Origin: a virus
UHGV virus genome: UHGV-0292061
DNA length: 13,522 bases
Strand: one strand, 5' to 3'
The notes beneath the pieces were generated by a model, which saw only the letters and a program-made list of their open reading frames with translations, was not told where the DNA came from and made no database searches. Of this stretch, positions 12,838 to 13,522 are shown one piece after another (within the stretch, counting starts at the first letter, position 1; the number at the start of each line of letters is the position of its first letter). A program made the position numbers and the translations under genes.

Positions 12838-13386
12838 TCAATTATCTTCCAGGCCGGATGCTATCAACGAAAGTCTCTCAAAAAACGCTGTAGCAGCCTT
12901 GTCCAAAGTTGAATAAGTACTGTATTCTCCGTGTTCGGGACCAACCACTACCCATGGTCGTCTTTTTGGGATTCGGGATTTCTCAGAAATCACTGTTCCA
13001 GATATACCAATATCAATTGTTACACCTGTTATTATTTTCTCTTCATCTCTTTCCCTGAACTCAATTGCCATAAATGCCGTTTTTTTTCGTTTCCCGTTTT
13101 TAAAAAAATCAAATAAAGCAAAGCGATGCTCATTAAAATCAACACCCCATCGTCCTTCAGGATAAAGGGCATGAAAGTTGTCATTTACGCTCTGCATCGT
13201 CTCATAAGCTTTAACTTCTAAATCTCCATAGTGCATAGATACCGCGCAGGAGTTACTGGGTAACTGTATTTTCCCAAGATTGAAAACCTTTACTGCTCCA
13301 GAACTATGGCATCTTGCCCGCAACTTATCCCCATTTATACTAATCGGAGAAATATTCCTTAATGTTCCGGGCTGGCTCCCTCCTAA
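12838..13386 (-). pseudogene. Hypothetical protein of unknown family; reading frame runs open into the IS5 end, so the 5' part appears removed by the insertion
   Basis: Frame is open from the stop at 12838 up to the IS5 inverted repeat at 13387; internal ATGs at 13236 and 13197 lack convincing RBSs. The region is visibly more A+T-rich than the structural genes. I recognise no motif or family. Confidence 0.5.
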
Positions 13387-13522
13387 GGAAGGTGCGAACA
13401 AGTCCCTGATATGAGATCATGTTTGTCATCTGGAGCCATGGAACAGGGTTCATCATGAGTCATCAACTTACCTTCGCCGACAGTGAATTCAGCAGTAAGC
13501 GCCGTCAGACCAGAAAAGAGAT
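13387..13522 (+). mobile_element. IS5 insertion sequence, partial (continues beyond the window)
   Basis: Terminal inverted repeat GGAAGGTGCGAACAAG at 13387-13402, followed by sequence matching the remembered IS5 end and the InsH start. CTAA directly outside the repeat (13383-13386) fits the IS5 YTAR target preference. Confidence 0.9.
13455..13522 (+). CDS. insH: IS5 transposase InsH, N-terminal fragment (truncated by window edge)
   Basis: Translation [23 protein letters not shown] matches the remembered InsH N-terminus. Confidence 0.9.

What the first reader, a model, noticed from the sequence alone, without database searches (positions are those of the whole stretch)
13383..13522. IS5 inserted at a CTAA site, transcribed divergently from the cargo ORF
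The IS5 terminal repeat and InsH start are unambiguous, and CTAA immediately outside the repeat fits IS5 target preference. The element separates the cargo ORF from whatever lay upstream. Because this is the upstream edge of the late region, the insertion could also have separated lysis and morphogenesis genes from their antiterminator and late promoter. IS5 insertions are known to alter expression of neighbouring genes.
Basis: partly seen in the sequence, partly recalled or inferred. Interest (0 to 1): 0.45.

Follow-up and report, generated by a model that had tools for sequence, protein, structure and literature searches.

The report
IS5 insertion inside a prophage gene
The end of the window is the left end of an ordinary IS5 insertion sequence that landed inside a small prophage gene just downstream of the phage's late-gene antiterminator, which is routine prophage decay apart from the fact that IS5-type elements have hit this same four-base site at least three separate times.

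Summary
IS5 starts at window 13387, with CTAA at 13383-13386 and the transposase ATG at 13455. All 136 bases are identical to IS5 copies in more than 1,500 E. coli genomes.

The interpretation needs one correction. IS5 lies inside the "cargo ORF", not upstream of it. Intact relatives carry a 205-codon gene (phrog_8498, a WYL-fold protein without an HTH). IS5 sits at nt 70-73 of that gene, inside its invariant YLGGSQPG motif, so the gene is knocked out.

In all 51 intact complete genomes the antiterminator Q gene ends 75 bp upstream of this ORF. The idea that IS5 separates Q from the late genes is therefore supported by comparison, but the late promoter itself was not located.

The window is evidently a short-read contig that breaks in repeats at both ends (ISEc22 at 1-139). 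The other IS5 end cannot be seen here. The reciprocal junction (Q, ORF start, TTAG, IS5 right end) does exist in E. coli BvCmsKSP023.

Two different ISKpn26-like elements hit the same tetranucleotide independently, one in the opposite orientation and one with a 165-bp adjacent deletion. The site is probably a local hot spot.

This is ordinary biology and of low interest.

The parts
13383..13386 (+). CTAA target tetranucleotide (TTAG at nt 70-73 of the interrupted gene, read in gene orientation). This is the left copy of the expected 4-bp target duplication.
   Evidence: The same tetranucleotide flanks both ends of the complete IS5-family element in L005, L007 and L012. It also abuts the IS5 right end in L026.
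13387..13402 (+). IS5 left terminal inverted repeat (IRL), GGAAGGTGCGAACAAG.
   Evidence: Identical to the first 16 nt of reference IS5 in P1/J01735.
13387..13522 (+). First 136 nt of IS5. The window ends inside the element.
   Evidence: 136/136 identical to IS5 in 1,523 complete E. coli genomes. 135/136 identical to J01735. Only 113/136 identical to the ISKpn26-like elements found at the same site elsewhere.
13455..13522 (+). 5' end of the IS5 transposase gene insH/ins5A (first 22 codons), pointing away from the interrupted gene and towards where Q lies in relatives.
   Evidence: RefSeq annotation under the match reads 'IS5-like element IS5 family transposase'.
12838..13386 (-). 3' remainder (codons 25-205 plus stop) of the interrupted 205-codon prophage gene (phrog_8498, an HTH-less WYL-fold protein). 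Its first 24 codons and its ribosome-binding site are not in the window.
   Evidence: The 1,500 nt adjoining the junction are 0 mismatches from intact alleles L018, L019, L021, L022 and L024.
13387..13401 (-). Chance in-frame TTG within IRL that opens a 187-codon hybrid ORF (LFAPSLGGSQPG...) running from IS5 into the gene remainder. It is probably not expressed.
   Evidence: No such product is on record. No minus-strand promoter-like site occurs at the junction.

Best explanation
A canonical IS5 transposed into a CTAA/TTAG tetranucleotide 70 nt inside a small prophage gene that lies immediately downstream of the prophage's Q antiterminator gene. This occurred in an E. coli lambdoid prophage that was already tail-defective.

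Shown:
- The element is IS5.
- The insertion point is exact and falls between Leu24 and Gly25 of the family's invariant YLGGSQPG motif, in the WYL-like N-terminal domain. The gene is therefore inactivated.
- In relatives, Q lies 75 bp upstream of this gene.
- The prophage DNA next to the junction is identical to that of strains with the intact allele, so the event is recent and strain-specific.

Inferred:
- On the unseen side lie the first 73 nt of the gene, a second CTAA and Q, that is, a simple insertion with a 4-bp duplication. Exactly this arrangement is seen in contig BGAH01000037.1 of E. coli BvCmsKSP023.
- Late transcription coming from Q and its late promoter now has to cross 1.2 kb of IS5, antisense to insH and in the sense direction of ins5CB. 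Q-modified polymerase is terminator-resistant, so late genes probably stay Q-dependent. Unmodified transcripts, and the interrupted gene itself, are lost.
- The window stops in IS5 because it is a short-read contig that breaks in multicopy repeats at both ends.
- The site appears to be a preferred IS5-family target at the edge of an AT-rich, promoter-proximal tract.
For: IS5 identity.

Exact breakpoint against intact alleles.

Gene model. phrog_8498 matches residues 1-205 of 205 (E 5e-126). Distant homologues of 194-198 aa conserve the N-terminus, with Y23, G25-G30 invariant. The N-terminal domain of the AlphaFold model (pLDDT 73) matches the WYL domains of CapW, BrxR and DriD over 68-78 columns at rmsd 1.4-2.3 A.

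Q linkage. 51 of 52 complete genomes carrying this junction are intact, with Q adjacent.

Recency. There is 1 SNP in 13.2 kb against L018, L019, L021, L022 and L024, which carry the intact gene.

Reciprocal junction. L026 ends ...GTTTAC TTAG | GGAAGGTGCGAATAAGCGGGG..., and its last 153 nt are 153/153 identical to the IS5 right end. Q is 75 bp upstream of the ORF start.

Contig-end argument. Window 1-139 is 100% ISEc22, and all prophage matches start at position 140.

Recurrent use of the site. L005, L007 and L012 carry a complete 1,195-1,196-bp ISKpn26-like element with TTAG on both sides, in the opposite orientation. L025 and L027 carry another ISKpn26-like variant in the window's orientation. 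The flanking haplotypes differ.

AT-rich tract. AT content is 68-82% from -106 to +54 relative to the ORF start.

Literature. IS5 targets and hot spots in destabilised, promoter-proximal DNA, including nt 38-41 of nfsB: PMC5493358. The same Q-to-ins5CB arrangement at nmpC/quuD in K-12, and weak internal IS5 promoters: PMC11677980. Processive Q antitermination: PMC9388147.
Against: The other IS5 end, the second CTAA and Q are not in the window.

The exact left junction was not found in any collection searched: 5,426 complete E. coli genomes, GTDB representatives, IMG/VR and JGI metagenomes.

The source assembly could not be identified, so L026 cannot be tied to the same strain.

L025 shows that an IS5-family element at this site can be accompanied by an adjacent deletion.

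No convincing sigma-70 late promoter was found between Q and the site. This Q is at most 66% identical to Q proteins of sequenced phages. The position of the late promoter is therefore assumed by analogy with lambda, 21 and 82.

No expression data exist.
Confidence: 0.85

Rival explanations
1. The junction is one arm of an IS5-mediated rearrangement. This could be an adjacent deletion, an inversion, or recombination between IS5 copies after insertion. In that case Q and the early region are no longer on the other side of this IS5 copy, and the 13.2-kb late segment is an orphan bracketed by IS elements.
For: The window is bounded by mobile elements at both ends, so nothing beyond can be seen. 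L025 has an IS5-family element at the same site with 165 bp of the gene deleted up to the next TTAG. IS5 is multicopy, with up to 28 places per genome, which gives substrates for recombination.
Against: The breakpoint is a canonical target at the exact point of divergence from intact alleles. The matching reciprocal junction with the same tetranucleotide exists in L026. A complete simple insertion with a duplication is seen at this site for a sister element. The flanking DNA is otherwise unrearranged and nearly identical to intact prophages.
Confidence: 0.12
2. The IS5 copy acts as a mobile activator or promoter, as at bgl, glpFK, flhDC and fucAO. On this reading it switches on the truncated gene, the methylase and perhaps the lysis genes independently of Q.
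For: IS5 is known to activate neighbouring promoters (PMC5493358). An in-frame TTG in IRL opens a 187-codon hybrid ORF.
Against: Known IS5 activation works on a resident promoter located downstream of the insertion, and none was found here. No minus-strand promoter-like site occurs at or near the junction. Internal IS5 promoters are reported to be nearly inactive (PMC11677980). The hybrid protein lacks helix 1 and strand 1 of the WYL-like domain.
Confidence: 0.07
3. The junction is an assembly chimera in which a contig end was wrongly extended into a repeat, and no IS5 is present at this locus.
For: The window ends only 136 nt into a multicopy repeat, which is typical of a short-read contig edge.
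Against: The break falls at a canonical IS5 target with the terminal repeat starting at its first base. A random mis-join would not do this. The same site carries IS5-family elements in independent assemblies, including a finished genome.
Confidence: 0.02

Closest known systems
IS5 (IS5 family, reference J01735 from lambda KH100; insH/ins5A copies of E. coli K-12)
   Same: The terminal repeat, the 68-nt leader and the first 22 codons of the transposase match (135/136 to J01735, and 136/136 to many genomic copies). The target is a CTAA tetranucleotide.
   Different: Nothing in the visible part differs. Only 136 of 1,195 bp are in the window, so the length, the right repeat and the duplication are not seen here.
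IS5 in nmpC of the K-12 prophage DLP12, next to the Q-family gene quuD (PMC11677980)
   Same: An IS5 sits in the accessory-gene slot between a Q antiterminator gene and an essD/rrrD-type lysis cassette of a defective lambdoid prophage. Q-directed transcription runs in the sense direction of ins5CB and antisense to ins5A.
   Different: The interrupted gene differs (porin nmpC, cut near its 3' end, against a WYL-fold gene cut near its 5' end). The prophage also differs. In DLP12 the host gene's promoter drives ins5A. No equivalent promoter was found here, apart from a weak consensus match at 13314-13341.
IS5 insertional hot spots in destabilised promoter-proximal DNA: glpFK, bgl, flhDC and nt 38-41 of nfsB (PMC5493358)
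   Same: The same tetranucleotide is used repeatedly, close to the 5' end of a gene, at the edge of an AT-rich tract. At bgl, insertions in more than one orientation are reported.
   Different: No SIDD calculation or transposition assay was done here. Recurrence is inferred from natural isolates, so selection cannot be separated from target preference.
ISKpn26-like IS5-family elements at the same site (L005, L007, L012; L025, L027)
   Same: The target tetranucleotide, element size, terminal repeats and 4-bp duplication are the same.
   Different: They are 92-94% identical to IS5 and 113/136 identical to the window's end. One lineage is in the opposite orientation, and one has a 165-bp adjacent deletion.

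Membership tests
IS5 (IS5 family, IS5 group) | Terminal inverted repeat GGAAGGTGCGAA(C/T)AAG at the element's ends | tested here: met
   IRL is at 13387-13402 and is identical to the reference. IRR is not in the window.
IS5 (IS5 family, IS5 group) | Near-identity of nucleotide sequence to reference IS5 | tested here: met
   135/136 to J01735/P1. 136/136 to copies in 1,523 genomes.
IS5 (IS5 family, IS5 group) | DDE transposase Ins5A/InsH (326 aa) starting 69 nt from IRL | tested here: inconclusive
   The ATG is at 13455, which is position 69 of the element, and the first 22 codons are identical. The remaining 304 codons lie beyond the window.
IS5 (IS5 family, IS5 group) | 4-bp target duplication, typically CTAG, CTAA or TTAG | tested here: inconclusive
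   The left CTAA is present, and the intact allele has a single CTAA. The right copy is not in the window. The reciprocal TTAG|IRR junction is seen in L026, which may or may not be the same strain.
IS5 (IS5 family, IS5 group) | Element length of 1,195 bp | not testable with these tools
   The window ends at element position 136, and the source assembly could not be identified.
Lambdoid late operon under Q antitermination | Q-family antiterminator gene immediately upstream of the late genes | tested here: inconclusive
   Q is not in the window. In 51 of 51 intact complete genomes, and in L004, L015-L019, L021 and L022, a PF06530 Q gene ends 75 bp upstream of the interrupted ORF.
Lambdoid late operon under Q antitermination | Late promoter with Q-loading site, followed by a terminator | tested here: inconclusive
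   The consensus scan found no convincing promoter in the 75-bp Q-ORF spacer. That spacer contains a perfect TATAAT with a poor -35. A terminator-like hairpin lies at 11147-11131, after the methylase.
Lambdoid late operon under Q antitermination | Lysis cassette followed by terminase, portal, capsid and tail genes on one strand | tested here: met
   Gene maps of near-identical loci. The window is 99.98% identical to them.
WYL-domain proteins (interrupted gene) | Pfam WYL (PF13280) match above the gathering score | tested here: not met
   16.5 bits against a cut-off of 21.8, over residues 8-64. PADLOC WYL models give E 0.0015-0.0085.
WYL-domain proteins (interrupted gene) | SH3-like WYL fold | tested here: met
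   The top Foldseek hits of the AlphaFold model are the WYL domains of CapW, BrxR and DriD (E 2e-4 to 1e-3, rmsd 1.4-2.3 A over 68-78 columns). Model confidence is moderate (pLDDT 73, from 5 sequences).
WYL-domain proteins (interrupted gene) | N-terminal HTH DNA-binding domain, as in CapW, BrxR and DriD regulators | tested here: not met
   The WYL-like domain starts at residue 8 or so, and no HTH is present in the 205 aa.

The most novel reading that the evidence does not exclude
The TTAG at nt 70-73 of this gene, about 150 bp downstream of a Q antiterminator gene, is a genuine hot spot for IS5-family transposition. Hits there would be a recurrent natural route by which E. coli silences an HTH-less WYL-fold phage accessory gene and/or insulates a prophage late operon. 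This reading rests on at least three independent hits by three different elements, in both orientations.
Probability: 0.4. Interest if true: 0.35.

Novelty: already known. Interest (0 to 1): 0.17.

Why it matters
For annotation, three things follow:
- The "cargo ORF" in this window is a 5'-truncated pseudogene, not an intact gene.
- The prophage carries two IS hits (IS5 here, ISEc22 in gpG) and is defective.
- The window edge is an assembly break, not a biological boundary.

More broadly, the locus is a small natural example of repeated IS5-family targeting of one tetranucleotide beside a phage late-control region. It could serve as a convenient test substrate for ideas about IS5 target choice, such as destabilised AT-rich DNA near promoters. 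The finding has no wider consequence.

Tried and rejected
1. The exact left junction was sought in 5,426 complete E. coli genomes, GTDB species representatives, IMG/VR and JGI metagenomes. It was not found in any.

2. The predicted right junction was sought in IMG/VR, GTDB representatives and JGI metagenomes. It was not found. It turned up only through a protein search with the predicted 36-aa N-terminal fusion peptide.

3. I tried to identify the source contig through junction-specific or SNP-specific products. These were the 187-aa hybrid ORF, the gpG::ISEc22 fusion ORFs and the window-specific TerS variant. Only three short Logan contigs carry that TerS variant, so the source remains unknown.

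5. Rfam on the whole window found nothing.

6. Promoter scans did not locate a late promoter or an outward IS5 promoter.

7. I rejected the idea that the window-type and L005-type insertions are one event related by inversion. Recombination between IS copies cannot exchange which terminal repeat abuts a given flank, and the IS sequences and flanking haplotypes differ.

8. The K-12-derived copy first used as the IS5 reference (L014, at cobU/yoeG) is one of the mutated copies. Identities were therefore recomputed against J01735/P1.

Full report
**Observation**

The last 140 bases of the window read CTAA (13383-13386), followed by GGAAGGTGCGAACAAG..., with an ATG at 13455 that opens [22 protein letters not shown]. 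Window 13387-13522 is 136/136 identical to elements annotated "IS5-like element IS5 family transposase" in 1,523 of 5,426 complete E. coli genomes. It is 135/136 identical to the reference IS5 (J01735) carried by P1 mod749::IS5.

**What was hit**

A search with window 12700-13522 found no genome with the whole stretch. In 51 genomes the match stopped exactly at the IS5 boundary. Alignment with two of them shows the uninterrupted sequence ...CCCTCCTAAGTAAACGACTG..., with similarity lost right after CTAA(G).

In these genomes the minus-strand ORF is 618 bp (205 codons). RefSeq annotates it as hypothetical or "WYL domain-containing", and its ATG lies 72 nt beyond the insertion point. The 205-codon model is supported in two ways:
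- There is a full-length match to phrog_8498, residues 1-205 of 205, E 5e-126.
- Homologues of 194-198 aa at 31-35% identity are best conserved in the N-terminus, where Y23 and G25-G30 are invariant.

IS5 sits between Leu24 and Gly25 of that YLGGSQPG motif. The Pfam WYL score is below threshold (16.5 against 21.8 bits). However, the N-terminal domain of an AlphaFold model (pLDDT 73) matches the WYL domains of CapW, BrxR and DriD. No HTH is present.

IS5 is therefore inside the gene and inactivates it. Some gene callers report a 132-aa product starting at an internal ATG even on intact alleles, which may explain why the ORF looked complete.

**Genomic context**

The window is the late region of a lambdoid prophage on the minus strand. 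Reading in the direction of transcription, it contains:
- the truncated gene;
- a small ORF;
- an N6/N4 DNA methyltransferase (PF01555);
- a terminator-like hairpin at 11147-11131;
- holin, lysozyme and Rz;
- DUF1441 small terminase, large terminase, portal, a ClpP-capsid fusion, head-tail and tail-tube genes.

In every intact relative a 123-aa Q-family antiterminator (PF06530) ends 75 bp upstream of the interrupted gene. Of the 52 complete genomes that hold this junction region, 51 are intact with Q adjacent. The suggestion that IS5 now lies between Q and the lysis and morphogenesis genes is therefore supported by comparison.

The late promoter was not located. The 75-bp spacer is 78-82% AT and contains a perfect TATAAT with a poor -35, but the scan gave nothing convincing. 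This Q is at most 66% identical to the Q of any sequenced phage.

**Why the window stops**

All prophage matches begin at window 140. Window 1-139 is 100% identical to the end of ISEc22, an IS66-family element. That element cuts the tail-assembly chaperone gene gpG 7 nt after its ATG. The window is bounded by 139 nt and 136 nt of multicopy elements, so it is evidently a short-read contig that breaks in repeats. Sequence beyond 13522 cannot be inspected.

Contig L021 (GCA_001506145.1) carries the same gpG::ISEc22 junction but an intact Q-ORF region. The ISEc22 hit therefore came first, and the IS5 hit is the more recent one. Apart from the IS elements, the window differs from several such prophages by a single base (8797, in the small terminase).

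**The other end**

The exact left junction and the predicted right junction were absent from the complete E. coli genomes, GTDB representatives, IMG/VR and JGI metagenomes.

I then predicted the peptide that a gene caller would produce on the Q side of a window-type insertion: the 24 N-terminal residues read through into the IS5 right end. A search with that peptide found it once (P0012, GDJ16770.1, E. coli BvCmsKSP023). That contig (L026) runs through the early genes and Q, then 75 bp of spacer and ORF nt 1-73. It ends ...GTTTAC TTAG | GGAAGGTGCGAATAAGCGGGG..., and its last 153 nt are 153/153 identical to the IS5 right end.

This is exactly the reciprocal junction expected for a simple insertion with a 4-bp duplication, in the window's orientation. 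I could not show that it comes from the same strain. Look-ups of window-specific products did not identify the source.

**Recurrent use of the site**

- Three assemblies (L005, L007, L012) carry a complete 1,195-1,196-bp IS5-family element at the very same TTAG, with TTAG on both sides. It is in the opposite orientation, with IRL towards Q. It is 94% identical to IS5, only 113/136 identical to the window's end, and of the ISKpn26 type.
- The finished genome SCPM-O-B-7615 (L025) has another ISKpn26-like variant, 96% identical to the previous one and 92% to IS5, in the window's orientation. Its right end abuts the same CTAA. Its left end abuts the next TTAG of the gene (window 13218-13221), and the 165 bp between are deleted. 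The same right junction occurs in a human gut metagenome contig (L027).
- The flanking haplotypes and downstream modules differ among the three types.

These are at least three independent events. Recombination between IS copies cannot swap which terminal repeat abuts a flank. The 1,065-bp Q-ORF segment holds 15 YTAR tetranucleotides, 6 of them TTAG, so coincidence by chance is unlikely. Selection for inactivating the gene or blocking the operon cannot be separated from target preference.

The site lies at the edge of the AT-rich tract that runs from -106 to +54. It resembles the promoter-proximal, destabilised-DNA hot spots described for IS5, including nt 38-41 of nfsB (PMC5493358).

**Likely consequences (inferred)**

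The gene is knocked out. Transcription coming from Q's side enters IS5 at its right end, antisense to insH and in the sense direction of ins5CB. This is the same relation as between quuD and the IS5 in nmpC of K-12 prophage DLP12, where forced ins5CB transcription raised transposition about twofold and the internal IS5 promoters are nearly silent (PMC11677980).

Q-loaded polymerase is processively resistant to terminators (PMC9388147). Q has also been reported to suppress the polarity of insertions (Forbes and Herskowitz 1982, seen only as a reference). The late genes may therefore still respond to Q. Unmodified transcripts probably stop within IS5.

No outward promoter was found at the junction, so activation of neighbours is unlikely. 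The prophage is defective for tails in any case because of the gpG cut.

**Verdict**

The finding is a real, correctly recognised and ordinary IS5 insertion. The only mildly notable result is the repeated, independent use of this one tetranucleotide by three IS5-family elements. The kind of feature is already known, and interest is low.

Noticed in passing
window 1-139 (junction at 139/140): The left end of the window is the terminal 139 nt of ISEc22 (IS66 family, 100% identity). It cuts the tail-assembly chaperone gene gpG 7 nt after its ATG. Contig L021 (GCA_001506145.1) has the same junction but an intact Q-ORF205 region, so this insertion predates the IS5 one.
   Followed up: yes
L001:6139-6756 (-), the intact form of window 12838-13386: The interrupted gene encodes a 205-aa protein with an N-terminal WYL-like SH3 barrel (best structural matches CapW, BrxR and DriD), no HTH, and a second alpha/beta domain. 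The family is very narrow (9 database clusters). The gene always sits directly after Q. Its function is unknown. It could be a ligand-sensing or decoy accessory protein.
   Followed up: partly
L001:6757-6800 (-), upstream of the insertion site in intact alleles (not in the window): A 21-bp hairpin (-26.9 kcal/mol, z -4.8) buries the Shine-Dalgarno sequence and the AUG of the 205-codon gene. Its left arm contains a perfect TATAAT. A transcript starting at that -10 would lack the left arm and leave the ribosome site free, whereas read-through transcripts would have it sequestered.
   Followed up: partly
L025:6806-8001 (NZ_CP144926.1), equivalent to window 13218-13386: An ISKpn26-like element is flanked by CTAA on both sides, but the two CTAA copies come from two different TTAG sites of the gene (+70 and +235). 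The 165 bp between them are deleted. This indicates either an adjacent deletion or two insertions followed by recombination.
   Followed up: yes
window 11131-11147 (-): A strong terminator-like hairpin (GGCCACGTTGCGTGGCC followed by TTTTTATTTC) lies between the DNA methyltransferase and the holin gene. It could be the terminator that Q has to override, which would put the WYL-fold gene and the methylase in a Q-independent transcript.
   Followed up: no
window 8797: This is the only base in 13.2 kb that differs from five near-identical prophages (T here, A in them). It is a second-codon-position change in the small terminase (DUF1441). The variant protein is on record only in three short Logan contigs.
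   Followed up: partly
window 13314-13341 (+): A weak sigma-70-like match (TTGCCC, 16-nt spacer, TATACT) inside the gene remainder points into IS5 towards insH. It is also present in intact alleles and is probably chance. If active, it would drive the transposase gene, as PnmpC does in K-12.
   Followed up: no
L026:1-154 (BGAH01000037.1): The other end of the BvCmsKSP023 contig stops 150 nt into an ISKpn26-like element inserted at another TTAG. That prophage's early region is therefore also bracketed by IS5-family elements.
   Followed up: no
P0010, P0013, P0015, P0016, P0017 (Logan and ENA contigs): Several short products share the first 24-26 residues of the gene and then frameshift within the GGAGGGAG run right after the TTAG. 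These may be assembly errors or real indels. The search design favours finding such truncations.
   Followed up: no
L011:about 4130-4150: A metagenome scaffold has a 10-N gap 12 nt upstream of the same TTAG within the gene. The cause is unknown.
   Followed up: no
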